Source of the DNA: Trypanosoma brucei
Taxonomy: Eukaryota
NCBI GenBank assembly: GCA_000002445.1
Contig: CH464491.1
Location: 416,001-480,000 of the forward strand
Length of the DNA: 64,000 nucleotides
Direction: 5' to 3'
In this document: positions 16,296 to 46,826 of the stretch, in pieces
Numbering within the stretch: position 1 is the first letter of the stretch
Layout: each line of letters begins with the position of its first letter
Program-made: the position numbers and the translations under genes
The notes under the pieces: generated by a model
Seen by the model: the letters and a program-made list of their open reading frames with translations, nothing else
Databases searched by the model: none
Told to the model about the DNA's origin: nothing

Positions 16296-16352
16296 CCGCC
16301 CTTATTTTTGTCCAAACTATTTCCCCTTTGACCCCTTCCTTTTGTCGTCTGT
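16296..16352 (+). promoter_or_regulatory. polypyrimidine tract, likely the trans-splice acceptor region for GRESAG4
   Basis: cccttatttttgtccaaactatttcccctttgaccccttccttttgtcgtctgtaag lies ~40 nt upstream of the ATG at 16389. Confidence 0.45.
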
Positions 16353-16388
16353 AAGACATCTTAACGCTAAATAGAGACTAAACAAACA

Positions 16389-19300
16389 ATGCCGGCAGCT
16401 TTGTGCGGTTTGAGTTCTTCTGCACCACACACACGGGCGTCCTCTCACCGTATGAGGCACGTGACGCTACAACGAGGTGCAAAGGTTATTGGGTCGCTGT
16501 TGTTGTTAATAATGCTGACAGTCGGTTCACTCGCAAGGCCAATTGAAGCAACAGATGTTGTGACAGTCAAAGTGCTGAGCCTCATGTACGGCGCCGGCTC
16601 CCCCAACGACGTCGTTGACTCCCTCAACGCAGGTCTGGGTGCATCCCTTGCAGCACGTGAAGATGAAGTGAGCTCGATGTTCAAGGTTTCTCTGATCCAA
16701 CCTTCGTCGTACGATGAGCCAATCGAGCAGTTGTTTAACACCACAGTAGAACGGACGAACAACGAGCTTCTGGTCATCGTGGGGCCACTGGGTAATCAAA
16801 ATGTACTTTGGGTACAAGACAGGCTAGAGGTGCATGATTTGGTTGCCTTTGCACCTCTTTCTTACTCTGATAAAACCCGTGGGTGGAATCCCCACTTCTA
16901 TTATCCAAGTGTCGAGCCAGATGCCGAGTTACTTGCCCTCGTCCGCTATGCTATCGTATTCCTTCGGGTCCCGCGCGTAGGCTTCATGTACCTCAAGGAC
17001 ACGCACTTTGGTGAGACCTCGCTTCTATTCGCACGGGATGTGATGTCTATGATGGGATATAAGTTGTGTGGCACGTTTGCTATCGAAGGCGGTGATGATC
17101 GGAGCGAGGACGCTACATTCGAGGCGGAGTGGAAACAATTTGTGGATACACGCCCGCAGGCTGTTCTGTTATTTGGTTCCCCACACGACCTCACCGCGAA
17201 GTTCATCACGAAGATGGTGACGGATAATCGCACAGCAGGAGCGTATGTACTTACCGTCTCCAATATGCAAAATTTCCTACTCAAGAACTGGAAGAAGGCA
17301 CTGGAGGTGGCTGGTGCCAATCTCAAACCCGGACAAATCGTCATCACCGGTACAAGCCCACTCGCTGGTGATGCGCAATATGAAGTGATCCAACGCTTCC
17401 AAAGGGAAATGACTAAACACCTAGAGACAAACAAGGACTGGGGCGGTTTTGCGAAGCCAGGGCACTTTAGCACTAACCACAATGATGGGGAACTGATGGT
17501 TCTCGGGTGGCTCGCTGGGGAGTTGCTTGTGCGGGCACTAGTTGAAAGTGTCTCATTAACGAATCGTACCCTATTCAAGGCTTCACTGTATAATCAGCGC
17601 CGCTACCTGATCGACGACATGGTGATTGGTGACTTTGGCGGTGAATGCAGTGAGGACGCACAACGTCAAGGTGCCGTCCGCCGTTGCAACCAAGGGGGTA
17701 ATATAGTGTACATGAAGAAGGTTGTTGACCAATACCATTTGGAACCACTAAGGGAAGGATTCCTGACCTGGGGTACATCGCGGTGCTTCAGCGAGGGTGT
17801 CCGCGTAGGTGCCCCGCTTAGCGGTGTCGTCATATTGGCGTCCGATCACACTGTTGCTCATCGTGCCAATTCTCGGTACTTTAGTGGTGCAACGGCTCTC
17901 TCACGTAACGACCGGATCTGGGAGGATGACAGGCTCTTCCTTCATCCTCTCGAGTCCTCGCTTTCAGGGGCGGCAACAGACCTTCACGATAACCGCGATA
18001 AAATTGTCATTTCTGCTGTCTTCGGCGTTGTGACCAATGATGTGCTTAGCACAGAAGGTCTTATTTTCTTTGACCCGATGGTGGTTTTCCCTCAGTTGAG
18101 TATGTTCAGACGGCATGTTATACACTTCTTTCCTACGCTCGCACAGGAGCTCTACGTATTCGCCCGATACCTCTCACACTCGGAAAGCAGCTTCGCCGAT
18201 GCCATTATCCGAAGCGATGAGGCAGGTGAAATTGCCAAGGTATTGGCAATGTCATTGGTGACATTTGGCGTGTCACCTGGTTTTGGAGTGTTCTTGGATG
18301 TTGCTTCCCCTATTCGTGAAAGTCATCTCAAACGCGGTGGCGATACGTTCGTCCTTGGACTCACAGCTCCTGATGTAAAATTGATATCCAAGCACCTTGA
18401 AACCCACCCTGAGGCTCGAGTTTTCATCACCTTCACGGACCTGGTACTGCTGTACGAGGAGTTCATATCAGAGTTCAATGCAACTACAAACACTAAAGCA
18501 CAGCGCCTATTTTTCGCCACTAGTTTACCGCATTGGGCTGATAATAGTTCCAAATCAGAAACCATTACTGCTTACCACAGAGCTATTCCCGATCCGAAGC
18601 AGTGGTCGCCGATGTCACTGCGTGGTTTCGCTGTCGCCCGAGTGATGCAAACTCTCCTAGTACCCATGAAGAAAGTGAATGCCGCTTTACTCGCAGAGCA
18701 AGTGTTTTGGCAAACGTCGTTTGTTGTCGATGACATGAAGTATGGGCCCTTTAACGATGTCGACTGCGTCGCTAACGGCGTGCAACTGTCGAGTAATTGT
18801 GTTTGGAACTACGGTGCCACAGATATCGCTGTGTGGTCCTTCGCTCGTGTTCTGAACCCTTCTCTTCCTGTAGCGGAGGATCCCATTACGCCTTCGATGG
18901 AGTATAAGAAGCCTCGCGAGCAACTAACATCCTCTGAGATTGCTGGTATCGTAATGGGATCAGTTATCGCGTTGATGCTCTTTGCTACCCTTGGTGTTGC
19001 ACTACTATGCAGTAGGCGGAACAAGCGTGATAACGACCGAGCGCCGAGGGAACCAACTGATCCCGTGACACTTATCTTCACTGACATCGAGAACAGCACA
19101 GCCCAGTGGGCGGCGCATCCCGATCTCATGACGGAGGCGGTAGCCGCGCACCACCGCTTGATCCGTGCACTGGTGCTGAGGCATAACTGCTACGAAGTTA
19201 AGACCATTGGAGACTCCTTCATGATCGCGAGCAAGCACCCGTCCCAAGCGGTTCAACTGGCAGCAGATGTTCAACTCATGTTCTTGCACAACGACTGGGG

Positions 19301-20105
19301 TACGGATGTATTCGACAATTTCTACCGTGAGTTGGAGGAAACGAATGCGAAGGAGGATAATGAATACACTTCTCCTACTGCATGTCTGGACCCCGAAGTG
19401 TACAGTCGGTTGTGGAGTGGTTTACGCGTACGCATTGGTATTCACACCGGGTTGTGTGATATTCGGCATGATGAAGTCACAAAAGGTTACGACTACTACG
19501 GTCCCGCCACCAACATGGCAGCACGCACGGAGAGTGTTGCTAACGGTGGGCAAGTATTAATAACACATGCAACTTATATGTCTCTGAGTGAGTCGGAGCG
19601 GCAACAGTTCGGTGTGACCGCACTCGGACCCGTGGCATTGCGTGGCGTTCCTCAACCGGTGCAGCTGTACCAGCTAAGTGCGGTACCGGGTCGTACCTTC
19701 GCACCCCTCCGCCTTGACCGGGAGTATTTCTTCGAAGATGAAAATGAGACCACCAACTCCACAAGCGAAAATAGCTCGTCACGTGCGGAGCTTGGTGAAT
19801 CGGCACAAATGATTATGACTTCACTTCAGATGTTGCTCAGTACCTTCAAGGGTCCGCAGCGTGAGAAATTGCTAACGCCGTACTGTGAGCGCTGGCGTGT
19901 GCCGCTACCCCGGAAGTGTACAAGAGTGTGGGATGAGGAATATTGTCAGGAGGTTATGCGTCGCATTGCTGCAAAGGTCGGGCACGTGGCGGACCACTGT
20001 GCGGTGGGCCAAAGCAATCACTCCACAAGTACACTGAGCAGCGCATCAGTGGTGATTATCTCCGAAAACAAAGCTTTCCTCGATACATGTTCTTCCATGC
20101 TTTGA
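16389..20105 (+). CDS. GRESAG4: receptor-type adenylate cyclase (GRESAG4 family): signal peptide, large extracellular periplasmic-binding-protein-like domain, one TM helix, class III cyclase catalytic domain
   Basis: The catalytic domain block PVTLIFTDIENSTAQWAAHPDLMTEAVAAHHRLIRALVLRHNCYEVKTIGDSFMIASKHP...LRVRIGIHTGLCDIRHDEVTKGYDYYGPATNMAARTE is typical of trypanosome ESAG4/GRESAG4 cyclases. A TM segment IAGIVMGSVIALMLFATLGVALLC precedes it. The ORF starts at an ATG. Confidence 0.9.
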   Translation: MPAALCGLSSSAPHTRASSHRMRHVTLQRGAKVIGSLLLLIMLTVGSLARPIEATDVVTVKVLSLMYGAGSPNDVVDSLNAGLGASLAAREDEVSSMFKVSLIQPSSYDEPIEQLFNTTVERTNNELLVIVGPLGNQNVLWVQDRLEVHDLVAFAPLSYSDKTRGWNPHFYYPSVEPDAELLALVRYAIVFLRVPRVGFMYLKDTHFGETSLLFARDVMSMMGYKLCGTFAIEGGDDRSEDATFEAEWKQFVDTRPQAVLLFGSPHDLTAKFITKMVTDNRTAGAYVLTVSNMQNFLLKNWKKALEVAGANLKPGQIVITGTSPLAGDAQYEVIQRFQREMTKHLETNKDWGGFAKPGHFSTNHNDGELMVLGWLAGELLVRALVESVSLTNRTLFKASLYNQRRYLIDDMVIGDFGGECSEDAQRQGAVRRCNQGGNIVYMKKVVDQYHLEPLREGFLTWGTSRCFSEGVRVGAPLSGVVILASDHTVAHRANSRYFSGATALSRNDRIWEDDRLFLHPLESSLSGAATDLHDNRDKIVISAVFGVVTNDVLSTEGLIFFDPMVVFPQLSMFRRHVIHFFPTLAQELYVFARYLSHSESSFADAIIRSDEAGEIAKVLAMSLVTFGVSPGFGVFLDVASPIRESHLKRGGDTFVLGLTAPDVKLISKHLETHPEARVFITFTDLVLLYEEFISEFNATTNTKAQRLFFATSLPHWADNSSKSETITAYHRAIPDPKQWSPMSLRGFAVARVMQTLLVPMKKVNAALLAEQVFWQTSFVVDDMKYGPFNDVDCVANGVQLSSNCVWNYGATDIAVWSFARVLNPSLPVAEDPITPSMEYKKPREQLTSSEIAGIVMGSVIALMLFATLGVALLCSRRNKRDNDRAPREPTDPVTLIFTDIENSTAQWAAHPDLMTEAVAAHHRLIRALVLRHNCYEVKTIGDSFMIASKHPSQAVQLAADVQLMFLHNDWGTDVFDNFYRELEETNAKEDNEYTSPTACLDPEVYSRLWSGLRVRIGIHTGLCDIRHDEVTKGYDYYGPATNMAARTESVANGGQVLITHATYMSLSESERQQFGVTALGPVALRGVPQPVQLYQLSAVPGRTFAPLRLDREYFFEDENETTNSTSENSSSRAELGESAQMIMTSLQMLLSTFKGPQREKLLTPYCERWRVPLPRKCTRVWDEEYCQEVMRRIAAKVGHVADHCAVGQSNHSTSTLSSASVVIISENKAFLDTCSSML

Positions 20106-23071
20106 CGTCACGCCTGCACGTGTTTATGCGGACATATTAGCAGTTAAATATGTACGATCTTCCTCTGTATAGTCTAGTTATTAACCATTGAGTTAGCCAA
20201 GACCTGTTAACTTTCCGGTGTGAGCGTTCTTTTTTTCTTTTCTTTTTTTGTTTTCATTTTTTACTTTGAGTACTTTACAAATCAATAAGGCTTCGAAAAT
20301 GTTGTTTTCCTTTCTTTTTCCTTACTGCGTTACGGTAGCGGCGTTTTTTTTATCTTTTTTAATAACCTCAGGGACCTCTATGTAATATGCCAATTAGTTA
20401 CATCTCTCTAGGATAGGCATAATTTCTCATGATGTATAAATATAAATATCTTTTTTTATTTTTATTTTTATGTATATGCTTATCTAATCTATGTATTTTA
20501 TTTTCTTGTTTCATTTCCTCTTATGACTATTAATGTTTTCATCTTACACTAATTTAAATTTTTTCCACCCCGTATTACCGAACACATTTGTCACATTGGG
20601 CTCCGGTTCGGGATTTTGAAGACGCCTGGCTCATGCCTTCCTCCACTGCATAACACTGCCCATAACCGTTTAGCGGCACATAATAATATAAATAGTAATA
20701 ACAATGACAATAATGATAAATGTTTTTTTCTCATGAGCGTTTGCGGTATTACCCATGTATTTTCTTTGTTTTTTTTTTCGTCATTATTGCCGTTATTTTC
20801 ATCACCAATTGTTTACTCTCAACCTCCCAATGACACTTCCCTCAGCCCAACTGAATGCGCCCATAGAGCGCTTACCGTAGTGTTTATTATTATTTTTTCT
20901 TCCGAATCAAGTTAGTATAAATTTACTCGTGTGTTTTAATTTGATTTAACCTTATGCGTAGCACAAATGCATAATATCTTAGCAGGTACTGTCTTGATTC
21001 ATTCTTATTCCATGGTACTCTCTGTGGTTCACCGTGTTGATGAAGCTTTTGTATATTTATATTCCCCATCATTTTGATAGTGCACGAAAAAGCTGTAACA
21101 TATCTTCATAGGTGAAATTTATGCATTATACTCCCAACTGCTTTTGTAGGTGAGGGATGAGGTGCGGAAGGAAAAATCTGCACTGGATCCTCTGAGGTGT
21201 GTGGTGGTTGTCGTTGATTGAATTATGATTTTCTTGTCGTGACCCCGCCGCCGGGGGAAATTTGGCAGTCTCTTTTCGACAAATGCGATATAGGCTTGTA
21301 TGTTGGGCTGGAAGATGGATCGCCTGTGGTGTGTTGGGCTTTCTTTATTTGGTGTGGAAGCTTTATGCGCATTTTTGTTGTTGTAGAGGTGGTGAAAATC
21401 ACATTTTATGCACTTGGTGGTAGAAGTATTGGGAGGGTTTTGATGTTTTTCATGCCCTTATTCACGCACTCGAATGGCGCCACCTCAGCCGGGGAACTCG
21501 GCTCTCTTCGAAGTGTCGCATTCTTTTTCCTCCGCTTGTCCATACAATACCTACTCGCAAGCTGGTGAAAATTAAGCCGCCAAGTCCCTCTCAACGGTAT
21601 GCGCATAATCCGTGCCTGGCAAAATCAACTATTCTGAAACACTGTCTGTAGACACAAAGGGCGGTTAAGGCGCTCATTTTCATGTTCCATTTACACTTCC
21701 TCCATCACACAATCAAACAAAAAACTTTCTCATTTTAGTGACAATGCCATTCGAACGGCGTCTTCGAGTATGCCAAAGCGGACCCATGTGCCCTACTCGG
21801 GCCGCAACGCCAGCAGCGCGTTATGGCCTTTACCAAGGGTTTACTGGGGAGTATAGTCGTTTCTCCATATTCCTGCATCATAGTTCCCTCTGGTTGTATT
21901 TCCCACTTTCTTTCTATAATCCTTCTGCGTTGGTTGACGAATGGATGTGTTACGTGGGCAGTTGCTCCATCACTGCGAAATGGTAGAAGGTGGGGGTGAT
22001 AAACCTTGAGGTGTCGGGTGAAAGCAACCCTTTTCCACGTTCTGTACCGCCACATTCTGTATTCGGGTGCGCCAACCGCCGGCTTGAGTGCTTTTTCGTC
22101 CACATTGGCAGAAACGGGGTGCAGGTTGCAGAGTCCTTTTATTTATTTATTTTTGTGGGTGCCATACTTTTCAAGACTTCTCAAACAATTTCCTCTGCAA
22201 TGCCGTCAGCCGCCTATTCGAGGTGAGTTTATCTTAAGGGAAATGAGGCGCATGACAACGTTGTTTTTTTTTCCACTTTACCCACAGCGAGGGCCTTCGC
22301 AGGGGCCGACGCATTGCCTGCGACAAAATGCCCAACTTTTGATATGCTTCGTTTCTTGTTGGGGAAAGATTTCAGTGCGAGCTTCGTTTGAAGAGCGAAA
22401 ACAATTATGTATCTACGCTTTAAAGGGCATTTGATCAAAAGAAAATACCTTTCCACAGAGTTTCTCGTTGTCGTTAGTGTGTCCGATGTTCCGGTTAAGG
22501 TTAACAACTGGAGTGTGGATGTTTCCCGCAACGCGAAGCATTTTCACTTGGTAGTGGAAGCGGTGGCGTCGTCGGAACATGTCTTTTCGTGAGACTTTCG
22601 AGGTGTGATAAGGAGTTGTGTAGCGGTTCCGCGCCTATGCGAGTGTAAAGCCTGCAGGCTGTTTTCTTCCCGCCGCCGCGGTTTCCTGCTATGTTCAAGT
22701 GAGGTTGTCTCGTTCCGTTCGAATGTTGTTGTGGAGTTCACCCCTGGTGACCGGCATTCCCTTTAGGCAGTGCAATTCACCTTAGTTATCTGACTACTAG
22801 CCTTATTTTGCTCTGTTATTTAAATATATATTTGATTGCCGTTACAATCTGACACTGTGCTGAGGAAGGTAATTGGGAGACATCTATGATAAAGTTCGCT
22901 TGTGTATTGAAAGGATGCAAGCTCCATTACAAAATAGGTAATGTGTTTTATTTCAACTGGTCGCTCGAGGCATGCTATCTCGTGCTTTAAATATTTTCTC
23001 AGCCTTATTTTTTCTAGTGTTCAACACCTGAAGTTGTTGCTGCTACTTTTCGTCGGAAGGAAGGCGTGGGT

Positions 23072-23491
23072 ATGTCCTTTTTCCAGTTGGATTGGGAATG
23101 TTCATATCAAGAGTATATGAAAATGATCTATCATCACGCAACGAACTATGTTCCGCCACGGGTTTCACAAGAGAGGCACCTCATCACTTGTAGGGAGCTG
23201 CTGAATGAAGCTCAGAGGGAATGCAAGGGAGGCAAGTATGATCTTTCCTTCTTTCACTACCTTCGGTGTATGGAGATTCTCACTAAGGTGGGGATACCCT
23301 CTACATACAAAGATTCAATGGTTCTGAAGAAGCAGTGTATGGATGCCATTGAAGCCCTCATGAATAGCGCTCTTAAAAATCACTATGAAAAAATGGTTAA
23401 AGAATTAAAGTCAAAGAAGGAAGGAGTTGATGCGGTTGACTATAAATTGTATGGCGACAGACTTGCCCACGTATCTGGGGGAAACAGCTAA
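23072..23491 (+). CDS. possible small helical protein (AMSH/USP8 N-terminal dimerisation-domain-like), either a stand-alone gene or a truncated remnant
   Basis: The 139 aa ORF has a polypyrimidine tract plus AG immediately upstream. The pattern VPPR...(helix)...GKYDLSFFHYLRCMEIL...YKDS...KKQ loosely resembles the N-terminal MIT-like domain of AMSH/STAMBP (IPPRRYFRSG...AFILYNKYITLF...HRDYKS). No JAMM domain follows it. The track start (23066) is a GTG. The ORF sits in an otherwise ORF-free 7.4 kb stretch. Confidence 0.2.
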   Translation: MSFFQLDWECSYQEYMKMIYHHATNYVPPRVSQERHLITCRELLNEAQRECKGGKYDLSFFHYLRCMEILTKVGIPSTYKDSMVLKKQCMDAIEALMNSALKNHYEKMVKELKSKKEGVDAVDYKLYGDRLAHVSGGNS

Positions 23492-26400
23492 AGATGGCTA
23501 CAGAATATGTCGTTTGATGAATCCACATGGGCAAGGCGTTGGGAATGCAAAGAGCAAAAGCACAAAGACTGCGAAAAGTTGTGTTACGAGGGTCAGCAGC
23601 GGGGTCGCGCTCATTTTTACTCTACGCACAACCGACCCCGAATATGCTTAGCGAAACGTCAGGTGCCGTGGTGGATATGTGCACCGATGAATTTTCTATT
23701 GATATCAAGGAGCCTTCTCCAGAAGATGCAATTGTCGTAGCCAGCCTGACTCTACGAAAAAAAAAAATGCAAAAGTGGCGCGAAGAAAAGAGGACAGCAG
23801 CAAAGCCACCGAAGAGAGCACAGTCCGGGGCATCCACATGCACACTCAATTTTAACAAACAAGAAACCAGATGGCCTCTAAAGATTAGTGAATGCTAAAT
23901 TGTAGCGGTCACCGCATTGTCCTCACGCACCCCAAAGTTTTTCTTTTTTTGGGGGGGGGGCTCTACATCCTTAACTAATGCTAAACGTTGTGTCTTCCAG
24001 TCAGTGCGCTGCTGCACCACAGCAAATACAAAGCCAAAATGAATTGCATATAAAGGCAAAAGCCTCATACTAACATCATATGCCGACCCTGATAGTGGCT
24101 CGCGGCGTGCCGTGGCTGTTATTTGAAGGTGAAACAATACGAGCTCGAACAACAGATCCTATATATATATATATATATATGTACATATAAAGATTTGTGT
24201 ATCAACGGAGTTTTTTGTGACCGCAGTGTTTCCGACGACTGACCACGAATAGTCACTCCTGGAGCCAAACATCTCCTTCCAAACACATCCTCTGCGTAAA
24301 ATCACGGCCAATCATATTTTGAAAAATTATAATCGTGCCACTTCTGCTGGATTGGGAAACCGCCGACCGAACCTGCACATGAAGTTGGGTTCCGCGTTTG
24401 ACTTATCTCTGATAACACCCTTTTCACACATCCGGAGGTGCATGCGCTAAAGAGCTCGCCACAACGGAATTAACATGATATGAAAGCAAACGAACTCGCA
24501 GTCCCATTCCCGCCCGGTGCGTAATGGTCATCAATCAGACATCCGTTGGGGAAGAGTTTAAACGGATTGCACAGACGCCAAAACGAAGCAATTACATGTA
24601 GAAAAAAAAGGAATGAGGAAAGAAACCCTAGAGTCACATCGATATCGCAAGTGGGTAATGACCACAGATGGAGAAATCAACGCGTCGTTATCCGTCGGAG
24701 TCGGAACGCGACTTTCTTGGTCAAAGTCGAGGGAAGCCATAATGTCAGCACCGACTGTAGACCCCGTCCTTTCAGCTATGTACCAGAATCTGTAGCCTTT
24801 CCGACAGCACTACAGCAGCCGAATATCCAACGTACCCTCCGTAAACGAATTCCTATTTGCTAGCACTGACAGTTCATGCCTCGCAGCTACGCTAAACAAC
24901 GGCCAAATAAGCCAGAGAAGTTGAGCAAAGAAAGAAATGTGGATGAGGGCGCCTCACTATCCTAAAGCTGCATGATCGATACGTCGGCAATTTTAGCGAA
25001 GCCGCTGCGGAGTACAAGTTAACGAGTTGGCAGATGAATATGCAACGCAAGTTGTAGAAACCGGCGCATATGAGAAAACTTTAGCACTATAGCATACTTA
25101 CGCGAACCAGCCTCCACGAACGATGTGGAACCAAATCATTTCATATCTATAGCACCGATGTAAACTCGGGAAAATGGGTTCAAGGACGGAACACCTTGAA
25201 CTGAAACTCCTGGCGGCACCACACCATGTTGAAGTAAATACAAAAAAATATATCTTCACTACTCCCAAGAGGGCCGCTTTCTACAATATCCAAAGGAGGA
25301 CGTCAAAAATATATAAGACAGTCCGTGCACTGACCGTCCAGGCACGCAAACCACAAGACGATGGTTGACGCGAAACCACGGTCGATCTGGATTCGCACAT
25401 TGATTATTACAAAATTTTCAAATAGATTTAGAAGTTCAGAGCTAAATAAAACAAATGAATAAACATATATACACAACATCCCCTTTTATTTGCTTCCCTC
25501 ATGTCTCAATCTGTTTCTGTTTTCTTTATGCAACTATTTTGGAGCTGCTTCCGATGTGCCACTGCAGAATGAAAAAATGCTCATTGGAACAAATGCATGA
25601 GTTTGCATATAAATATCACACATAATTTATTTCATATTACGAGTGTTTGCAATATAATGGAAAACATGGAAAGGAAATGAATCAATGAATATGCGCCGCA
25701 GTTGTAAAAGGTTTGTGCTACTATTGTGCTTGCTTGTCTCAAAAACTCCTTCCCAATTGTTTAGTATGAAGCAAATTGTTGTAGCAGTTTAAATGAGAAA
25801 AAAGATACATAGTCCACTCTGTTTGTTCCAACAGCAATTTATCCTTTTTCAAAATGCTTCACACACAATACCAGAGAAAAATTACCTTTTTTTCTTGTCA
25901 GTACTGACATTCCTTCTTCGCAACGTACTCTGTAGAATTGGAAGTTTGAAACAATTGAAGGGACCTCCGCACACTCACGGAATGGCATCTGTTTTGCCTT
26001 CATAATGATAGTTTCATTCCTCCGCGGGTTGTGGCGTGATATCCTCCGCTTCTCCTCTTTTTTCCAGTTTTCGCGGTATTGGAGTCCATTCCCCCTCCCT
26101 TCATTCTTCCAAATAAATTATAAAGGTATCAAATGAAAGGGCTTTGAGGGCACTCGGCATTGACGAAAACACTACGAAGTTATTGTTCCCAATGGAATTT
26201 ATTCGTGAAGTGTAAGATACAAAGGAGGCCAAGTAGAGAAAATAATACAACCCAAAATGTCAGGGAACACGGGTATTTATTAGGAATGAACGTAGAACTA
26301 ACATGCGCAGATATGATACTGCAAAGACAACAATTTCGGCTAACATTTGTGTGCATGTTCAACTTTTACAACTGGAGAAATATTCACTACTAAAGTTTTC

Positions 26401-27505
26401 TCACAGTTGTAATAATAGCAATGCGTGAAAACACAAATACACGCTCCTCAAATGCATGATACAACCAGAGGTGTAAATAGCTCAAATGGTAGGATTCTCG
26501 ACACATGTGGAAACGAATTAACTCAACTAGCAATATTTTAGTTATATCGAAGCCTTACCACAATCGGTTCAGCTAAAATACTTCAAACGAGTCCTTCAAA
26601 ACCCCTGTTTGTTAATGCTTTTATTTATTTTATTCTGATGCCTGGTGAGCATATTTGGCTGCGATGGATTACTGCTGTACATGTTGGATGTGCGAAATCT
26701 TTCTCTAAATTCACAGAAATATATATCGTACCGTCTTTCATTTTACTACTCCCTTACATTCTCTCCAAACATACATAGATGATACCATAGTCATTATAGC
26801 TATTGAGGAAACTGATACCTTGGTCTTACATTGCCCTGGTCGTGGCCGAAACTTGCAACTTGATTTGTCGTGCATTCCGCTATCCATGCTGGAAGTTGTG
26901 TTGTGCAATATTTTCCCTCCGAGTTATGAGGTGTGATAACTGTCAGTCCTTCAGTTGTGCCCTACCAATCGAATCCATCAGCACTATTTTATTGCATCTC
27001 CTCATTCACTTCCCCTTTTACACAGACATATTTCTACCATTAAAAGTTAAAATGTGACTCATAAGCGATGATGAGACCACACCGAGTTGTTTTGCTATTA
27101 CCTCAGTAGCACCACATGAAAGCAAAGTGTTGGCTTTGCATTGCCCTTCTGTGCCAATAGTCGAAAACAGAAATATAGTGAGGAATGTTTGTTATTATTT
27201 GGAATCCTTTTATTGAGTGTGACTTTGGAATCGTAACATAATTGAAATAAGCAGAGAATGTGTCATCCCTCCCTTCCCATTAATTTTCTACATGTGCTGA
27301 GAGGAGATGAAAAGTGTTTTCAGTGTTTGAAGTTTTGACATTTCAGTGGCATAATACTTCAAGTTAGTGGAAATAAAATTGCATACCCAATGCCATTATG
27401 ATGCAAATACATTCAACTGACAGCATTCAATCATCTCATTGCCAAACTTTGTTTCGACTCTCAGAAATAATATTTTTAGTAGAAAACGGCTACCAAACAT
27501 AAGTA

Positions 27506-30500
27506 ATGGGAACTACAATGTCAGGAAACCAAGGAAGAAAGCGACAGCGCATCTCAACTCCTGAGCACTCAGAAGCTTTAAAGGAACCATCAACTTCTCA
27601 AAAAAATACACCAACCACCATTACAATCACCGAAGAAATGCGTGACTCCAGTAATGAAGGAACTTTGGTATCATTACTGAATGAGCGTGAGAAGTTGATT
27701 AAAGAAACACCACGGCTGGAAAGCAATGTGAAGGCATTCAGATATTTTATGAGTGGTCTCACAGCTATGAGTGTTGAAAGGCAAGGTGGTGTGTGTGATG
27801 ACGCCAAATGCATACGTACAGTAACGTTATATCATGCTGCTGATAATTCCTTTAGTGGCAAAGGACTAAATGAAGGTGCTCTTTCCTCACTCTGTGGTCG
27901 CATTCAAGCTGAGAAATTAACCATCACAATGTCAGAAGGTGAGAAATTTGACTTACAAGGAGTCAGTGAGCTAAAGCAGTTGGAAGAGTTACGCATTGAA
28001 TACCCACGTGGAAAACTTGTGAATATGATATCTTTGAAGAGACTGCACATGTTGAAAAGGCTTTATCTTAAGAGTAACAACATTGACGACAATGACGTTA
28101 GCCATTTATTCAATATTGTAACGTTGGAGGATTTGGTTGTTGCTGACACCATGCAACTGACAAATATCAAAGGAATCTCTCGCTTGACTAACCTGAAGTG
28201 TCTTGAGTTTAATTACACAAGCATTGATGATAGCTGTATAGAGGAAATATGTGAATGTGCTACACTTTCCAAGCTGAGTGTATCTGAATGCAACAGCCTC
28301 ACGGATGTAACACCAATTTCACAACTTGCAGCACTAGAAGAGTTGAATCTAAGCAATTGCTACCACATAACGAAGGGAATAGGAGCACTTGTAAGGTTGT
28401 TGCGACTGCGTGCACTTGACTTGAGTGGTGTCTCTGTGGAAGATAATTTTCTTAAGGATTTGTGTGATTGTGGACCGCTGGAAAGGCTGAACCTTTCTCA
28501 TTGCATTCAGTTGACAGATATCAATCCACTCTCCAACGCCACTGCTATTCAGGAATTGAACCTTAACCGTTGTCACCGAATAACACAGGGGATAAGCGTT
28601 GTGTGGGAATTACCAAAGCTACGCGTATTGCACATGAAGGACATGCACCTGAGCGAGTCATCTCTTGATTCGGTTGGAACTAGCGAATCACTTGTAAAAT
28701 TAAGTATTGAAAACTGTGCAGGTTTTGGTGACATGACACTCTTATCCAGCTTTGTTGCACTCGAGGAACTGAATATTCAAAAATGTGCTGATATCATTAG
28801 TGGTGTGGGTTGCCTTGGTACACTACCGTACCTGCGTGTACTTAACATAAAGGAAGCACACATCTCTTCCATTGGCTTTACTGGTATTGGTGCCTCAAAA
28901 TCCCTTTTACAGCTCACTATAGAGAGTACCACGGGACTGAGTGATGTGGAAGCACTCGCTAACATTTTAACTCTGGAAAAACTAAGCCTTCTCGGTTGCA
29001 ATGGTATTGACGCTGGAATTGGATGTCTCGGTAACCTGCCACAGCTTAAAGTGTTGGATCTGTCTGGTACAAATACTGACAGTGATTCTCTCAGAGGTCT
29101 ATGCGTATCACAGACAATAGTGTCACTCAACCTTTCCCATTGTTGGAAAGTAACAAGTGTGTTCCATATTTCAGCCCTTGAAACATTGAATGAACTGAAT
29201 TTAAGTGACTGTATTAGGATAAATGCAGGATGGGAAGCACTTGAAAAACTTCAGCAGCTACATGTGGCAATCCTCTCGAATACACATATTACTGATAGAG
29301 ACATATCTCATTTCAGCAAGTGCAAAGAACTTGTTACGCTGGATCTTTCTTTCTGCGATGAGTTATTTGATATTACATCCCTCTCCAACATCACTACGCT
29401 TGAGGATTTGAATCTTGATAATTGTTCAAAGATTAGAAAAGGGCTGAGTGTTCTTGGAGAGCTACCACGGCTTCGTGTGTTGAACGTGAAGGGTGTCCAC
29501 TTGACGAATTCTGTTATTGGATCACTAGGGAATGGCAAATCATTTGTCAAACTTATTCTTGATAATTGCAAAGGATTAAGTGATGTCACATTTCTTTCGA
29601 GCCTTTCAACACTTAAGGAACTGAATCTTCACCACTGTGACGCGGTAACCTCTGGAATTGGAACGCTGGGAAGGTTATTGCAGCTTCGTGTACTGGATTT
29701 GGGATGGACAAAAATTGATAATAATTCCCTTGAGGATATCTGCGCGTGCTCAAGCCCACTTGTATCATTAAACCTTTCGCATTGTAAGGAAATAACATCT
29801 ATTTCTGCGATAGCTTCCCTTAATGCATTGGAGAAACTCAACATTGACAACTGCTGTCATGTAACATCCGGCTGGAATGTATTTGGTACACTTCACCAAC
29901 TGCGTGTGGCCGTACTGTCGAACACACGAATTAATGATGAAAACATACGGCACATCAGCGAGTGCAAGTCTTTGAATACACTCAACCTCGCATTTTGTAA
30001 TGACATAACGGACATCACGGCACTTTCTAACATTACTATGCTCAGGGAATTGAACATTGATTGGTGCTTCAATATCGAGAAAGGTGTCGAAGCTCTTGGA
30101 AAGCTGCCTAAGCTTCGCGAGCTAGATGCAAAGAAATGTGGAACAAGTGTTAGATGGATGCAACAATATCCTTACAACACACTCTTCAAATCACTTGTGA
30201 AACTGAATCTCGAGAATGGACGTGAATCATTTTGTGTGGGAACTCTCTCCTCAACTGCTATAGTTGAAGAATTGCTGCTGGGACGCGCTTGTGAGCCGTA
30301 TCATCTACCCCCAATCTCCAGCCTAAGACGACTTCGTGTACTGAATTTGGATGATGGAAGGGTCTGTGACATATGGCTTGAGGGGATCTCTCAATCCAAG
30401 TCACTGCAGTCACTTAACGTATCAAACTGTAATTATATAACCGATATATCAGCATTATCTTCCCTATCAACGTTGGAGGAACTGAATGTTAACTGCTGCG

Positions 30501-31705
30501 ATCGAATACGAAAAGGTTGGGAGGCATTTGAAGCTCTGACTCGACTACGTGTAGCAACCCTTTCCGTAACTTGGGTTACCAACGAAGGCATACGTCTCCT
30601 CAGCGGGTGCAAAAATCTCAGAAATTTGGAGCTGTACTGTTGTGGAGATGTGTCCAATATCGAGCCGATAAATAACATTAAGTCACTGGAAGAGCTCACC
30701 ATTCAGAACTGCCATAACATTAATGAAGGTCTGCTCAAGGTTGGAATGCTACCAAGGCTACGGGTATTGGTTTTAAGGAAATTACAATCCACTTATTTCT
30801 CCCTCAGTTCACTAGGAGAGAGCAAATCTCTAGTGAAACTCACTATCGAAGGACCTGAAGAACTATGCGACATCAAACTTATTTCCAACATTGCAACACT
30901 TAAGGAACTGAAAATCGCCCATGGTGACCGATTATTGAATGATGTAGGGGATCTTGGAAAACTGCCATGGCTTCATGTACTAACCCTGAGCCATTTCAAC
31001 ATGGGAAATACCTGTTTTGAGAGTGTCTGCAAGATTCGATCGTTGAAATCACTTGACATTACCCACTCATTTGAATTGCCAGACATATATCATATATCAA
31101 ACCTTACGGCACTAGAAGAACTGAATCTGAGCGGATGTTACCACATAATTTCAGGCTGGGAAGCACTGACCGCATTACCACGACTCCGTGTGCTCAACTT
31201 ATCGTCCACAAGAGTTACAACCAGTTACGGTGGATATTATATCAGCAGATGCAAATCCCTCATTACACTGAACCTTGAATCGTGTGATATGACCGATGCT
31301 TCTTGTCTTGCTGATATCAAGACACTAGAGGAGTTACACATAGGGAAGTGCGAAGAGCTAACGCGGGGGTTTAGTGCACTTTTCACTCTTCCACAGTTGC
31401 GCATTCTTAACCTTATGGATTCTCTCATTACAGATGAAGATCTCAGGGAAATTCAACTATCCCATACCATTGAGGATCTCAACCTCTCTTATTGCAAGGA
31501 GCTTAATGATATCACACCCGTTAGGAGGATCAAATCAATTAAAAAAATGGACCTCCACCGAAGCTCTGAAGGCAGGGGACTAAGGGAAGGATTCAGAAGT
31601 CTTTTGGAGCTACCATGTCTTTCCTGGGTTGATATCAAAAATGCTAATGTCAGTTTTGATGTTTATAAAGAACTGAAAGAAAGGAAAGTGGATATATACA
31701 ACTAG
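27506..31705 (+). CDS. leucine-rich repeat protein (LRRP), ESAG8-like LRRs, ~45 tandem LRR units, no RING finger
   Basis: A 1399 aa protein built almost entirely from ~24-residue repeats of the type LxxLxLSxCxxITDIxPLSxLxxLEELNLxxC, as in trypanosome ESAG8/LRRP1. The N-terminus MGTTMSG fits an N-myristoylation consensus, and a basic KRQR cluster follows it. The ORF starts at an ATG. Confidence 0.85.
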   Translation: MGTTMSGNQGRKRQRISTPEHSEALKEPSTSQKNTPTTITITEEMRDSSNEGTLVSLLNEREKLIKETPRLESNVKAFRYFMSGLTAMSVERQGGVCDDAKCIRTVTLYHAADNSFSGKGLNEGALSSLCGRIQAEKLTITMSEGEKFDLQGVSELKQLEELRIEYPRGKLVNMISLKRLHMLKRLYLKSNNIDDNDVSHLFNIVTLEDLVVADTMQLTNIKGISRLTNLKCLEFNYTSIDDSCIEEICECATLSKLSVSECNSLTDVTPISQLAALEELNLSNCYHITKGIGALVRLLRLRALDLSGVSVEDNFLKDLCDCGPLERLNLSHCIQLTDINPLSNATAIQELNLNRCHRITQGISVVWELPKLRVLHMKDMHLSESSLDSVGTSESLVKLSIENCAGFGDMTLLSSFVALEELNIQKCADIISGVGCLGTLPYLRVLNIKEAHISSIGFTGIGASKSLLQLTIESTTGLSDVEALANILTLEKLSLLGCNGIDAGIGCLGNLPQLKVLDLSGTNTDSDSLRGLCVSQTIVSLNLSHCWKVTSVFHISALETLNELNLSDCIRINAGWEALEKLQQLHVAILSNTHITDRDISHFSKCKELVTLDLSFCDELFDITSLSNITTLEDLNLDNCSKIRKGLSVLGELPRLRVLNVKGVHLTNSVIGSLGNGKSFVKLILDNCKGLSDVTFLSSLSTLKELNLHHCDAVTSGIGTLGRLLQLRVLDLGWTKIDNNSLEDICACSSPLVSLNLSHCKEITSISAIASLNALEKLNIDNCCHVTSGWNVFGTLHQLRVAVLSNTRINDENIRHISECKSLNTLNLAFCNDITDITALSNITMLRELNIDWCFNIEKGVEALGKLPKLRELDAKKCGTSVRWMQQYPYNTLFKSLVKLNLENGRESFCVGTLSSTAIVEELLLGRACEPYHLPPISSLRRLRVLNLDDGRVCDIWLEGISQSKSLQSLNVSNCNYITDISALSSLSTLEELNVNCCDRIRKGWEAFEALTRLRVATLSVTWVTNEGIRLLSGCKNLRNLELYCCGDVSNIEPINNIKSLEELTIQNCHNINEGLLKVGMLPRLRVLVLRKLQSTYFSLSSLGESKSLVKLTIEGPEELCDIKLISNIATLKELKIAHGDRLLNDVGDLGKLPWLHVLTLSHFNMGNTCFESVCKIRSLKSLDITHSFELPDIYHISNLTALEELNLSGCYHIISGWEALTALPRLRVLNLSSTRVTTSYGGYYISRCKSLITLNLESCDMTDASCLADIKTLEELHIGKCEELTRGFSALFTLPQLRILNLMDSLITDEDLREIQLSHTIEDLNLSYCKELNDITPVRRIKSIKKMDLHRSSEGRGLREGFRSLLELPCLSWVDIKNANVSFDVYKELKERKVDIYN

Positions 31706-37660: not shown

Positions 37661-37728
37661 CGTGGACTGTAATTTTACCCGAGGTGTAAGCGCGATGAAT
37701 CACACCTCGGGTAAAATTACAGTCCACG
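37661..37728. repeat. perfect 27 bp inverted repeat (hairpin with 14 nt loop) about 95 nt downstream of the last gene of the minus-strand polycistronic unit
   Basis: The left arm cgtggactgtaattttacccgaggtgt, the loop aagcgcgatgaatc and the right arm acacctcgggtaaaattacagtccacg are read directly from the sequence. The right arm is the exact reverse complement of the left arm. Confidence 0.9.
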
Positions 37729-37822
37729 AGCCTCGTCCACACGACCGGATGGGCAACTGCGTTGGAAACTACTTATGAAACAGAGTTAATAGTTTCTTTT
37801 GTTTAGAGGCGGGGGTCACACG

Positions 37823-40292: not shown

Positions 40293-40431
40293 ACAAACAG
40301 ATGTCTCTAAGAAATAAAAGGGTACGCACCCAGTGAGTGGACAACTACACGTTAAATCAAGGGAAACGAATAGTTAATGTTAAACATTAGTTTCCCAACA
40401 GTTAAGGCATGTAAATCCGGCACACCACAAC

Positions 40432-45603: not shown

Positions 45604-46826
45604 TCTTTTTTTTTGGGAGAGGGTTACTTCTATTTGCTATATTATTTTTCTTGAACTGCAATGCCTTGCGTGAAGAAAATTATGAGGTGAAAAAAAAAGG
45701 TGTCAAGTTTTTGCTGTTATGGAATTGGTTTTTTTAATGCTTACTTGCTAAACTTTTTTTTTTTGGAGCAGAAGTGTTTACACATTTTCTTTTTTTCAAC
45801 TCATCATCCTGTCTTCCATTTTGTTATGTAACTGATCTTTATACAAATAAGAATGGATATTTGCAATGGAGAACGTATCGGTAGGATGGATGTGAGTTCT
45901 GACCCTTTATTCTGTGATCAGTTGTGGGATTTGCAATATATCTCTCGTGCGTTTTTTTAGAAAAAATATACCAAAGGATGAACAACTTAATGGTAAACGT
46001 TGGATCTTTTCTGCCGAATTTTTTCTTTCTTTTCTTCCATAACTTTTTTTTCTTGGAAGGTGGTTCTTTTCTTAACTTCTACCAAAGCATCGCCGCGTTA
46101 TGCAGTGCAAAGAGGCGAGTTTTTTTTATGTCGATCGAACCACCCTTTAAAAACAAGCAAAACCACGGATACGTAAACGTGTTAATGAGGTTGAGTGATA
46201 GCTTTTGTGACCAATCACCTCACGTGTGGTAACGGTAAGTAAAACAAAACGATGTAAAATGCGGCAAGGCAACAACGCATATGCGCAGTCACTTATATAC
46301 GAACAAATAACGAAATGACATATATATAATGGCAATTCATAAAAAGTGAGAGTAACCATGCCTTTGCAGTTGTGGAATCGTTGTTTTCCCTATTTCATCG
46401 ATTCCCTTGGTGGTTTGCCTTCATATGAAGCTGTGTCGGGCGCTTTCGACATACCCATCAATGCAACAATTCAAACTTGCACTCAGTCACTTTTTCCTTT
46501 TCCCCGTATCGGCGTGAGCTCTACGCTATTTCTCCTCCACTCTGTAGATATTGAGACGCTTGAACGATAACGTATATGAAATGCCCAGCAGTTGCAACCG
46601 CAAGCTTACACATGGATCACTGGACCTTTCCCATGCATAAAGCTAAATGCCATCTCCGAGGCAAGGCAAGAGAGTCGTGAAATACATGATCAAACGAAAA
46701 AATACGAAATGAGGCGACAAACGGCGGACTTCGCTCCGCCCAATAACTCAAATAAATAACACGCACCATATCCTGATTGCTTTACATAACATCCATCTCG
46801 CCACCCCTCGTCAGAACAAACAATTC

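What the first reader, a model, noticed from the sequence alone, without database searches (positions are those of the whole stretch)
20106..27505. A 7.4 kb AT-rich, ORF-poor stretch between the adenylate cyclase and the LRR gene
Trypanosome intergenic distances are typically 1-2 kb. Here 7.4 kb separates GRESAG4 (stop at 20105) from the LRR protein (start at 27506) on the same strand, with no convincing ORF apart from one possible 139 aa gene. The first kilobase is extremely AT-rich low-complexity sequence (T-runs and tatgtatatgc-type motifs). There is an AAT/ATA-rich segment at 20.6-20.8 kb, an (AT)10 microsatellite at ~24160-24180 and a moderately GC-richer island at 24.2-25.4 kb. The candidates are an unusually long 3' UTR for the cyclase, unannotated non-coding RNA, or erosion of one or more former genes.
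Basis: partly seen in the sequence, partly recalled or inferred. Interest (0 to 1): 0.5.

Follow-up and report, generated by a model that had tools for sequence, protein, structure and literature searches.

The report
Spacer holding a truncated deubiquitinase gene copy
The 7.4 kb gap in Trypanosoma brucei chromosome 11 is a patchwork of the cyclase's 0.9 kb 3' UTR and two already-published low-abundance transcripts, one carrying a truncated copy of a deubiquitinase gene that lies about 100 kb away; it is ordinary and largely already documented.

Summary
7,400 bp separate GRESAG4 (stop at 20105) from the LRR gene (start at 27506), with no more ORF content than shuffled sequence gives. The window is T. 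b. brucei TREU927 chromosome 11 (window coordinate + 416,000 = Tb927_11_01_v4).

The interval is a mosaic:
- **20106-20983:** the mapped GRESAG4 3' UTR, which is the AT-rich first kilobase.
- **21081-22900 and 23003-26637:** two trans-spliced, polyadenylated "novel transcripts", Tb11.NT.19 and Tb11.NT.20 (Kolev et al. 2010).
- **21473-23432:** a 1.96 kb segmental duplicate, 98.4% identical to 1,605 bp of upstream flank plus the first 120 codons of ubiquitin hydrolase Tb11.46.0014. That gene is the first gene of a transcription unit about 100 kb away.

The "139 aa gene" is therefore 120 residues of the hydrolase's MIT-like N-terminal domain plus 19 unrelated residues, with no catalytic domain. 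No domain relics, repeats, tRNAs or Rfam RNAs occur elsewhere in the interval. The origin of 23433-27505 is unresolved.

The same spacing is present in T. b. gambiense. The transcripts and the ORF's homology were published in 2010, so novelty is low. An internal promoter role for the duplicated GT-rich flank is disfavoured by published start-site maps.

The parts
20106..20983 (+). GRESAG4 (Tb11.27.0001) 3' UTR, 878 nt. This is the AT-rich, T-run-rich first kilobase.
   Evidence: Kolev 2010 Table S3 gives CDS 432389-436105 and transcript 432345-436983 in Tb927_11_01_v4, flagged 'alt 3UTR'. The offset of 416,000 is verified on three CDSs. GC is 0.34.
20106..21227 (+). 3' flank belonging to the GRESAG4 repeat unit. 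The unit is window 16265-21227, and a rearrangement breakpoint lies at 21227/21228.
   Evidence: In T. b. gambiense the two tandem GRESAG4 copies share their downstream flank (1,107-1,118 bp in the two copies) at 97.8% identity and then diverge. Copy 1 is followed by a 1,842-bp spacer that is absent from the window.
21081..22900 (+). Published novel transcript Tb11.NT.19: 1,819 nt, trans-spliced and polyadenylated, 0.43 RNA per cell, with no coding signature.
   Evidence: Kolev 2010 Table S7, 437081-438900 (+). An AG dinucleotide sits at window 21079-21080, directly 5' of the start. The codon-usage score is not gene-like.
21001..21500 (+). The most G+T-rich 500-bp stretch of the whole window on the + strand (G+T 0.62). 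It lies inside Tb11.NT.19, mostly just 5' of the duplicated segment (last 28 bp inside it).
21473..23432 (+). A 1.96 kb segmental duplicate of the ubiquitin hydrolase Tb11.46.0014 locus. It comprises 1,605 bp of the gene's upstream flank (the edge of a divergent strand-switch region, including its splice acceptor) plus the first 361 bp of the CDS.
   Evidence: blastn gives 98.4% identity over 1,966 bp to L003 8396-10361 and 98.5% to L004. The four-way alignment shows sharp boundaries at both ends.
23003..26637 (+). Published novel transcript Tb11.NT.20: 3,634 nt, 0.87 RNA per cell. It carries the 139-aa ORF at its positions 70-486, followed by about 3.1 kb with no coding signature.
   Evidence: Kolev 2010 Tables S7 and S8. 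An AG dinucleotide sits at window 23001-23002.
23072..23491 (+). The 139-aa ORF. It consists of 120 codons of the hydrolase's N-terminal MIT-like domain plus 19 read-through codons of unrelated sequence. The catalytic UCH domain is absent.
   Evidence: BLASTP identity of 116/122 to TREU927 Tb11.46.0014 / XP_828277.1, after which the sequences diverge. phmmer hits only the N-termini of 558-600 aa C19 peptidases. It is the only part of the interval with gene-like codon usage. T. b. gambiense annotates it as 'hypothetical protein, unlikely'.
23527..23898 (+). A 123-aa ORF, most likely spurious.
   Evidence: It has no Pfam hit. It differs from the gambiense version by +1 and +2 indels that shift the frame over 18 codons. 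T. b. gambiense annotates it as 'hypothetical protein, unlikely'.
23433..27505 (+). 4.07 kb of unique non-coding sequence of unresolved origin. It forms the 3' part of Tb11.NT.20 plus an 868-bp spacer and LRR-gene 5' UTR. It includes the (TA)n repeat at 24160-24189 and poly-pyrimidine tracts at 25882-25899 and 26040-26065.
   Evidence: No match to the rest of the window or to L002-L004. No Pfam relic in six frames. No Rfam or tRNA hit.

Best explanation
The interval is a non-coding patchwork spacer near the end of a long + strand polycistronic unit of T. b. brucei TREU927 chromosome 11. It sits in a block of lineage-specific surface and signalling gene families (ISG65-like, GRESAG4, LRRP).

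It consists of four pieces:
1. The 878-nt AT-rich 3' UTR of GRESAG4. This UTR is part of a GRESAG4 repeat unit that ends at 21227.
2. A short GT-rich joint.
3. A 1.96 kb DNA-level segmental duplicate of the promoter-proximal flank and first 120 codons of the ubiquitin hydrolase gene Tb11.46.0014. The intact parent, syntenic with its orthologue in T. melophagium, lies about 100 kb downstream as the first gene of another transcription unit.
4. About 4 kb of unique sequence of unknown source.

Because the interval lies inside a transcribed unit, the RNA is processed wherever splice and poly(A) signals occur. [quoted passage not shown] The result is two rare transcripts, each under one RNA per cell.

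The 139-aa ORF is a truncated gene fragment: an MIT-like N-terminal domain without the catalytic domain. It is most likely an unconstrained pseudogene.

**Shown:** the coordinates, the duplication and its boundaries, the absence of the catalytic domain, and (from the literature) the transcripts and the UTR.

**Inferred:** that the copied acceptor drives processing, that the fragment has no function, and that the mosaic arose by recombination during expansion of these gene families.
For: - **Identity of the window.** The GRESAG4, LRRP and ISG-like proteins are exact matches to TREU927 EAN79127.1, EAN79128.1 and EAN79126.1. The consecutive accession numbers mean no CDS is annotated between GRESAG4 and LRRP in that record.
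- **Duplication.** 98.4% identity over 1,966 bp to the hydrolase locus, with sharp junctions. The ORF is 116/122 identical to the parent's N-terminus and then unrelated.
- **Direction of the duplication.** The parent locus is colinear with T. melophagium: TCP1(-), cation efflux(-) | USP(+), a 458-464 aa gene, a 222-223 aa gene, LRR, a 274-276 aa gene, a zf-CCCH gene, ArgRS. The window shares nothing else with that locus. The ORF is 95% identical to the T. brucei parent but only 47% to T. congolense and 32% to T. vivax, so the copy arose within the T. brucei lineage.
- **No catalytic part.** tblastn of three full-length orthologues finds only residues 1-117/123. There is no UCH Pfam hit in any of 88 six-frame segments.
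- **No sign of constraint on the coding part.** Copy versus parent shows 19/1605 differences in the upstream flank and 5/361 in the CDS.
- **Transcripts, UTR and transcription-unit structure.** Kolev 2010 Tables S3, S7, S8 and S14. Table S8 prints the identical 139-aa sequence and names Tb11.46.0014.
- **GRESAG4 unit boundary.**
- **No known ncRNA.** The Rfam E-value scan of the interval is empty, while the same library detects the TB11Cs4 snoRNA array at 40.4-45.5 kb.
- **Same architecture in T. b. gambiense.**
Against: - The source and any role of 23433-27505 (55% of the interval) and of 21228-21472 are unexplained. I could not search the rest of the T. brucei genome.
- The ORF is intact in two subspecies with only one amino-acid difference, and it retains a complete, confidently modelled helical domain. 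A function for the fragment is therefore not excluded.
- The published internal transcript boundary (22900/23003) lies in sequence 98% identical to the parent. Short reads from the parent locus may have contributed to it.
- The transcript data come from procyclic T. b. rhodesiense mapped onto TREU927, a single life-cycle stage.
Confidence: 0.85

Rival explanations
1. Ectopic internal transcription start region. The duplicated 1.6 kb is the promoter-proximal, GT-rich flank of a divergent strand-switch region. Together with the adjacent GT-rich tract it would recruit H2A.Z and RNA polymerase II and re-initiate transcription upstream of the last gene of the unit, the LRR gene.
For: - The parent gene is the first gene of a 'Divergent' transcription unit (Kolev Table S14).
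- The three most G+T-rich 500-bp windows of the 64 kb window on the coding strand lie at 21.0-23.0 kb. The duplicated part corresponds to the G+T-rich edge of the parent strand-switch region (G+T 0.56-0.60).
- Wedel et al. 2017 (PMC5579346) report that GT-rich elements on the coding strand, and relocated fragments of start regions, can drive directional transcription and H2A.Z deposition.
Against: - Kolev Table S14 lists Tb11.03.0410 to Tb11.53.0001 as one unit starting at a divergent region, with no 'Internal' start site in it.
- Both interval transcripts are rare (0.43 and 0.87 RNA per cell).
- Tb11.NT.19 is trans-spliced at 21081, upstream of the duplicate, which is what read-through from upstream would give.
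- Wedel et al. note that activity depends on genomic context.
- G+T richness alone is weak evidence.
Confidence: 0.06
2. The 139-aa ORF is a functional small protein: a stand-alone MIT-like domain derived from the USP8/AMSH-type N-terminus of the hydrolase. It could, for example, compete with the parent enzyme for ESCRT-III-type partners or for self-association.
For: - The ORF is open and nearly identical in TREU927 and T. b. gambiense.
- It lies 70 nt from the 5' end of a trans-spliced mRNA-like transcript.
- Codon usage is gene-like.
- The AlphaFold model has pLDDT 81 with four helices.
- The best structural matches are the AMSH/STAMBP MIT domain (TM 0.62) and the USP8 N-terminal domain.
Against: - The gene-like codon usage and the open frame are simply inherited from a copy only about 1.4% diverged.
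- Substitution rates are equal in the CDS and the flank.
- The ORF ends in 19 arbitrary read-through residues that model as disordered.
- It is not listed among the novel transcripts with mass-spectrometry peptides: Tb11.NT.20 occurs only in Tables S7 and S8.
- The transcript is rare.
- The T. b. gambiense annotators flagged it 'unlikely'.
- The Foldseek E-values are weak (0.007) and Pfam finds no MIT or USP8 domain.
Confidence: 0.06
3. One very long GRESAG4 3' UTR, or a very long LRR-gene 5' UTR, spans the interval.
For: - All of the interval lies on the transcribed strand of one unit.
- An alternative 3' UTR site is recorded for GRESAG4.
- Few strong poly-pyrimidine tracts occur between 20.4 and 25.9 kb.
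Against: - The mapped GRESAG4 transcript ends at 20983.
- Two separately spliced and polyadenylated RNAs occupy 21081-26637.
- In T. b. gambiense the two GRESAG4 copies share only about 1.1 kb of downstream sequence.
Confidence: 0.02
4. The interval holds eroded resident genes or a decayed mobile element (ingi/RIME, RHS, ESAG or VSG relic).
For: - The 21.0-25.4 kb block has near-coding GC.
- Strand composition flips at about 23.3 kb.
- The neighbourhood is made of expanding gene families, and an LRR-gene conversion patch is visible.
Against: - 88 six-frame stop-free segments of 45 aa or more give no significant Pfam hit.
- blastx against all window proteins and LRRP paralogues finds nothing.
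- There are no internal or window-wide repeats.
- Codon-usage scores are non-coding everywhere except the duplicated ORF.
Confidence: 0.08

Closest known systems
Kolev et al. 2010 'novel transcripts' Tb11.NT.19 and Tb11.NT.20 (PLoS Pathog 6:e1001090, Tables S7 and S8)
   Same: The coordinates match after the 416,000 offset. The 139-aa sequence printed for Tb11.NT.20 orf_1_70_486 is identical to the window ORF, and its T. brucei homologue is given as Tb11.46.0014.
   Different: In the tables I could read, the ORF is listed only as homologous to T. cruzi, L. major and T. brucei genes. Those tables do not say that it is a truncated copy, that 1.6 kb of upstream non-coding flank was copied with it, or where the junctions are.
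Non-processed (duplicated, truncated) pseudogene or gene fragment arising by segmental duplication
   Same: It shows high nucleotide identity to an intact parent, including non-coding flank. It has sharp breakpoints and covers only 22% of the CDS. Divergence is equal in coding and non-coding parts.
   Different: The fragment keeps an open frame and sits behind a working splice acceptor in a transcribed unit, so it is expressed as RNA. No target-site duplication or poly(A) tail is present at the junctions, so it is not a retrocopy.
USP8/UBP5-Doa4 and AMSH/STAMBP-type deubiquitinases with an N-terminal MIT/USP8-dimerisation domain
   Same: The parent protein has an N-terminal helical domain followed by a C19 UCH catalytic domain. 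More distant homologues carry Pfam USP8_dimer PF08969, and one is labelled USP8/UBP5 by its source. The model of the fragment matches the AMSH MIT domain and the USP8 N-terminal domain.
   Different: The fragment has no catalytic domain. Sequence-level MIT or USP8_dimer membership is not detected, and the structural E-values are marginal.
T. brucei RNA polymerase II transcription start regions with GT-rich promoters (Wedel et al. 2017, EMBO J; Siegel et al. 2009)
   Same: The duplicated flank comes from the edge of a divergent start region and is G+T-rich on the coding strand.
   Different: No start site is recorded here in the published map. Chromatin marks were not examined.

Membership tests
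Truncated segmental duplicate (non-processed pseudogene) of Tb11.46.0014 | Nucleotide-level identity to the parent that extends beyond the CDS into non-coding flank | tested here: met
   98.4% identity over 1,966 bp, of which 1,605 bp lie upstream of the ATG.
Truncated segmental duplicate (non-processed pseudogene) of Tb11.46.0014 | Only part of the parental CDS is present, while the parent remains intact at its ancestral, syntenic site | tested here: met
   120 of 554 codons are present. No downstream relic is found by tblastn. The parent locus is colinear with T. melophagium.
Truncated segmental duplicate (non-processed pseudogene) of Tb11.46.0014 | Relaxed selective constraint on the copy | tested here: inconclusive
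   Differences are 5/361 in the CDS and 19/1605 in the flank. In the gambiense copy-parent comparison, I counted by eye in the alignment 3 non-synonymous and 2 synonymous changes. These are too few to decide.
Peptidase C19 / USP ubiquitin hydrolase (functional member) | UCH catalytic domain with Cys and His boxes (Pfam PF00443) | tested here: not met
   No PF00443 hit in the ORF or in any six-frame segment of the interval. The orthologues carry the domain at roughly residues 230-596.
MIT / USP8 N-terminal (dimerisation) domain | Helical bundle fold resembling solved MIT or USP8-N domains | tested here: inconclusive
   The model has pLDDT 81. Foldseek gives TM 0.61-0.62 to AMSH/STAMBP MIT (E 0.007) and E 0.04 to USP8 2a9u. 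There is no Pfam MIT or USP8_dimer hit at E <= 0.01.
Pol II transcription start region (T. brucei) | 5'-triphosphate RNA ends or a listed start site | tested here: not met
   From the literature only. Kolev Table S14 lists one unit, Tb11.03.0410 to Tb11.53.0001, with no internal site.
Pol II transcription start region (T. brucei) | H2A.Z, H2B.V, H4K10ac or Bdf3 enrichment | not testable with these tools
   No ChIP-seq tracks were available.
Pol II transcription start region (T. brucei) | G+T-rich coding strand | tested here: met
   The top three of 255 500-bp windows by + strand G+T lie at 21.0-23.0 kb.
Known structured ncRNA (snoRNA, tRNA, other Rfam families) | Match to a covariance model or a tRNA scan | tested here: not met
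   The Rfam scan of the interval at E <= 1 gives 0 hits. ARAGORN gives 0. As a positive control, 16 snoRNA hits are found at 40.4-45.5 kb.
Trans-spliced, polyadenylated non-coding or 'novel' transcript | Mapped spliced-leader acceptor and poly(A) site outside annotated genes | tested here: met
   From the literature: Tb11.NT.19 and Tb11.NT.20. AG dinucleotides are present at the stated acceptor positions. Caveat: the 22900/23003 boundary lies in duplicated sequence.
Retroelement or RHS/ESAG/VSG relic | Recognisable domain (RT, endonuclease, RHS, ESAG, VSG) or dispersed repeat | tested here: not met
   The six-frame Pfam scan is negative. No repeats are found in the window. A whole-genome search was not possible.

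The most novel reading that the evidence does not exclude
A recent segmental duplication carried a piece of a transcription start region (GT-rich promoter flank, first splice acceptor, and the MIT-like first domain of a USP8-type deubiquitinase) into the interior of another polycistronic unit. There it would have acquired a function in one of two ways. It could act as a weak internal promoter or H2A.Z island that boosts the terminal LRR gene. Or it could produce a stand-alone MIT-domain protein that interferes with the parent deubiquitinase or ESCRT-III binding.
Probability: 0.08. Interest if true: 0.45.

Novelty: already known. Interest (0 to 1): 0.15.

Why it matters
It matters little. For annotation, the result means the 139-aa and 123-aa ORFs should not be treated as genes. 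The first is a truncated copy of Tb11.46.0014 and the second is not conserved at the protein level. It also means short reads in 21473-23432 cross-map with the real hydrolase locus. That affects RNA-seq, ChIP-seq and RIT-seq/RNAi-target interpretation for Tb11.46.0014 and for the start region in front of it.

It gives a clean, dated example (about 1.4% divergence, after the split from T. congolense and before the brucei/gambiense split) of how spacer DNA accumulates around expanding GRESAG4/LRRP/ISG families in chromosome cores. It would become interesting only if the relocated promoter flank turned out to be active. That would be a natural experiment on whether start-region sequence is sufficient for initiation in trypanosomes.

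Tried and rejected
- **Word-indexed protein search with the 139-aa ORF.** It found nothing, although the near-identical gambiense protein is in the collection. That negative result was a tool limitation, not biology; the full phmmer scan found the homology.
- **Exact-sequence look-ups of window proteins.** The gene-position index has no record for TREU927. Loci therefore had to be reached through T. b. gambiense, T. b. equiperdum and T. melophagium.
- **Pseudogene relics of neighbouring families (GRESAG4, LRRP, ISG).** blastx and blastn against all window ORFs and paralogues were negative.
- **Catalytic-domain relic downstream of the ORF.** tblastn with three orthologues was negative.
- **Six-frame Pfam scan of 88 segments.** Only chance-level hits; the best was E 0.003 over 88 queries.
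- **Csm6 HEPN hit on the ORF (E 0.0024, below the curated cut-off).** Rejected as chance.
- **Internal or dispersed repeats and inverted repeats.** Only low-complexity matches were found.
- **tRNA and Rfam scans.** Both negative.
- **Synteny between the T. melophagium hydrolase locus and the window.** None, which shows the window copy is the derived one.
- **Retrocopy origin.** Rejected because 1.6 kb upstream of the splice acceptor is included and there is no poly(A) tail or target-site duplication at the junctions.
- **Logan contig L005.** I hoped it was a transcript, but it only breaks at the repeat edge and carries no spliced leader or poly(A) tail.
- **lncRNA paper supplements.** Those of Guegan 2022 and the polysome study are not held, and the nanopore study has no entry for these gene IDs.
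- **Searches for newer gene IDs.** They mostly returned prefix matches such as Tb927.11.15100 or nothing.

Full report
**Identity of the window.** Pfam assigns the flanking ORFs as a receptor-type adenylate cyclase (16389-20105) and a leucine-rich-repeat protein (27506-31705). Upstream lie an ISG65/75-family gene, a FYVE/PIP5K kinase and a 2-oxoglutarate dehydrogenase E1. The cyclase, LRR and ISG-like proteins are exact matches to T. brucei brucei TREU927 EAN79127.1, EAN79128.1 (Tb11.53.0001) and EAN79126.1. The consecutive accessions show that the GenBank record annotates no CDS between cyclase and LRR gene. Three CDS coordinates in the supplements of Kolev et al. 2010 fix the offset: window coordinate + 416,000 = Tb927_11_01_v4 coordinate. 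They are Tb11.47.0005 at 417832-418485, Tb11.47.0001 at 428987-430300 and Tb11.27.0001 at 432389-436105.

**The observation.** The gap is 7,400 bp, the largest same-strand gap in the window. Its ORF content is what shuffled sequence gives: the longest ATG ORF is 139 aa, reached by 7% of shuffles. The T-runs, the (ATAATA)n tract at 20680-20719 and the (TA)n tract at 24160-24189 are present. 'AT-rich' holds for 20.1-21.0 kb (GC 0.34) and 25.4-27.5 kb (GC 0.37). The central 4.4 kb has GC 0.45-0.46, against 0.49 for coding sequence. It is G+T-rich on the + strand at 21-23 kb and A+C-rich at 23.5-25.3 kb.

**What the 139-aa ORF is.** A codon-usage log-likelihood trained on the window's genes is gene-like only over 23072-23491. 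A word-indexed search found no homologue. An exhaustive phmmer scan then matched residues 1-117 to the N-termini of 558-600 aa proteins from T. melophagium, Phytomonas and an unnamed trypanosomatid. These are C19 ubiquitin hydrolases with the UCH domain in their C-terminal half. A profile search recovered the orthologue set across trypanosomatids, including an intact 554-aa TREU927 protein, XP_828277.1. The ORF is 116/122 identical to the N-terminus of that protein and then diverges completely. It is only 47% identical to the T. congolense orthologue and 32% to the T. vivax one. In the protein collection, the gambiense version of the ORF (CBH17043.1, 'hypothetical protein, unlikely') clusters with the hydrolase.

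**The duplication.** The gambiense hydrolase locus (L003, FN554974.1:530175-551839) and the T. b. equiperdum locus (L004) were fetched. blastn shows window 21473-23432 equals L003 8396-10361 at 98.4% over 1,966 bp. That span is 1,605 bp upstream of the hydrolase ATG plus 361 bp of CDS. A four-way alignment shows abrupt loss of similarity at both ends, with no poly(A) tail or target-site duplication. This makes it a DNA-level segmental duplicate, not a retrocopy.

The parent locus is colinear with T. melophagium: TCP1 and a cation-efflux gene on the minus strand, then the hydrolase and six further genes on the plus strand. The window shares nothing else with that locus. The window copy is therefore the derived one. 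The copy exists in T. b. gambiense at the same place. Within gambiense, copy and parent differ at 19/1605 upstream positions and 5/361 coding positions, so there is no sign that the coding part is better protected. tblastn finds no trace of the catalytic domain anywhere in the window. The ORF ends after 19 read-through codons of unrelated sequence.

An AlphaFold model (pLDDT 81) has four helices and a disordered tail. It most resembles the AMSH/STAMBP MIT domain (TM 0.62) and the USP8 N-terminal domain, with marginal E-values. More distant homologues of the parent carry Pfam USP8_dimer.

**Published transcript map.** Kolev et al. 2010 (PMC2936537) mapped spliced-leader acceptor and poly(A) sites in procyclic cells.
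- **Table S3** gives the cyclase transcript as 432345-436983. Its 3' UTR is therefore window 20106-20983 (878 nt, with an alternative site), which is the AT-rich first kilobase.
- **Table S7** lists two 'novel transcripts', described in the text as trans-spliced and polyadenylated. Tb11.NT.19 is 437081-438900 (window 21081-22900, 0.43 RNA per cell). Tb11.NT.20 is 439003-442637 (window 23003-26637, 0.87 RNA per cell). AG dinucleotides sit immediately 5' of both starts in the window sequence.
- **Table S8** prints the identical 139-aa sequence as orf_1_70_486 of Tb11.NT.20 and names Tb11.46.0014 as its T. brucei homologue.
- **Table S14** lists Tb11.03.0410 to Tb11.53.0001 as one plus-strand unit starting at a divergent region, with no internal start site. 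It lists Tb11.46.0014 as the first gene of another divergent unit.

Mapped RNAs thus cover 86% of the interval. One caveat applies: the 22900/23003 boundary lies inside the 98%-identical duplicate, so short reads from the parent locus could have contributed to it. The outer ends (21081 and 26637) are in unique sequence.

**The rest of the interval.** In T. b. gambiense the cyclase is tandemly duplicated. The repeat unit corresponds to window 16265-21227, so the first 1,122 bp of the interval belong to the cyclase unit and a breakpoint lies at 21227/21228. The gambiense inter-copy spacer of 1,842 bp is absent from the window.

The 245 bp between that breakpoint and the duplicate are strongly G+T-rich. 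Sequence 23433-27505 has no match in the window or the fetched loci. It also has no Pfam relic in six frames, non-coding codon statistics and no Rfam or tRNA hit. The same Rfam library does find the TB11Cs4 snoRNA array at 40.4-45.5 kb. The 123-aa ORF (23527-23898) differs from its gambiense counterpart by +1 and +2 indels that shift 18 codons out of frame, so it is not conserved as protein. I could not search the remainder of the T. brucei genome, so the origin of this 4 kb stays open.

**Mechanism.** The following steps are inferred. Polycistronic transcription runs through the interval. The cyclase mRNA is polyadenylated at about 20983, coupled to the acceptor at 21081. The copied hydrolase acceptor at 23003 brings with it a coupled upstream poly(A) site at about 22900, which splits the remaining RNA into Tb11.NT.19 and Tb11.NT.20. 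The latter is polyadenylated at 26637, upstream of the LRR gene's acceptor. The fragment ORF is probably a neutral by-product.

**Alternatives.**
- **Internal start region seeded by the copied promoter flank.** This is suggested by the G+T bias and by Wedel et al. 2017, who showed that GT-rich elements and relocated start-region fragments can drive transcription. The published start-site table argues against it.
- **A functional stand-alone MIT-like protein.** This is not excluded, but there is no positive evidence for it.
- **A single long UTR.** This is contradicted by the end mapping.
- **Eroded resident genes or mobile elements.** I found no evidence for these.

**Verdict.** The feature is real but ordinary, and its key facts were published in 2010: the transcripts, and the ORF's homology to Tb11.46.0014. 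This analysis adds several things. It gives the exact extent and junctions of the duplicate and shows that most of the copy is promoter-proximal non-coding flank. It establishes the direction and approximate age of the duplication. It also adds the cyclase-unit breakpoint and the MIT-like fold of the fragment.

Noticed in passing
window 27900-29000 (inside the LRR gene 27506-31705): About 120 substitutions against T. b. gambiense are concentrated in about 1.1 kb, while the surrounding 15 kb differ by about 0.1%. This looks like a gene-conversion patch from an LRRP paralogue. It explains why the two orthologous proteins are only 95% identical.
   Followed up: partly
window 16265-21227; L006 10001-20501: T. 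b. gambiense has two tandem GRESAG4 copies (CBH17041 and CBH17042) separated by 3,073 bp, including a 1,842-bp unique spacer. The TREU927 window has one copy and lacks the spacer. This indicates unequal crossover or assembly collapse. One paper also refers to Tb927.11.1490 as an adenylate cyclase.
   Followed up: partly
window 40422-45661 (minus strand): A tandem array of about 990-bp units with 5-6 copies is the known H/ACA snoRNA cluster TB11Cs4 (H1, H2, H3), with 16 Rfam hits above gathering score. It explains the other large 'gene-free' gap, 40293-46826.
   Followed up: yes
window 12987-14300: The ISG65-like gene (EAN79126.1, Tb11.47.0001) is probably Tb927.11.1470. A 2026 preprint describes that protein as a receptor that inhibits the complement C3bBb convertase. 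The ID mapping is inferred only from its neighbour Tb927.11.1480 being an adenylate cyclase.
   Followed up: partly
window 31706-37822: This is a convergent strand-switch region between the LRR gene (last + gene) and the first minus-strand gene. Kolev 2010 lists two minus-strand novel transcripts here: Tb11.NT.21 (window 34392-36860) and Tb11.NT.22 (window 37017-37569). A 34-nt inverted repeat (91% complementary) lies at 37654-37735.
   Followed up: no
window 16389-31705: The gene order GRESAG4 then LRR protein recalls, from my memory only and not tested here, the ESAG4-ESAG8 order of bloodstream VSG expression sites. The gambiense annotation calls this LRR protein 'T. brucei spp.-specific'.
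   Followed up: no
window 20000-38000 versus L001: Divergence from T. b. gambiense drops from about 0.5-0.7% (17.5-23.5 kb) to about 0.1% (23.5-38 kb, apart from the LRR patch). This suggests a haplotype or recombination boundary near the right edge of the duplicate.
   Followed up: no
L003 2044-10001 (parent locus, T. b. gambiense): The roughly 8 kb divergent strand-switch region in front of the hydrolase carries five short called ORFs of 100-238 aa with no Pfam hits. The duplicate overlaps one of them (151 aa, 8074-8529, minus strand). These are probably also spurious calls.
   Followed up: no
window 23072-23491 versus parents: Residue 25 is N in both copies and in the TREU927 parent, but K in the gambiense and equiperdum parents. 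Residue 113 is N only in the TREU927 parent. This may reflect shared polymorphism or copy-to-parent gene conversion.
   Followed up: no
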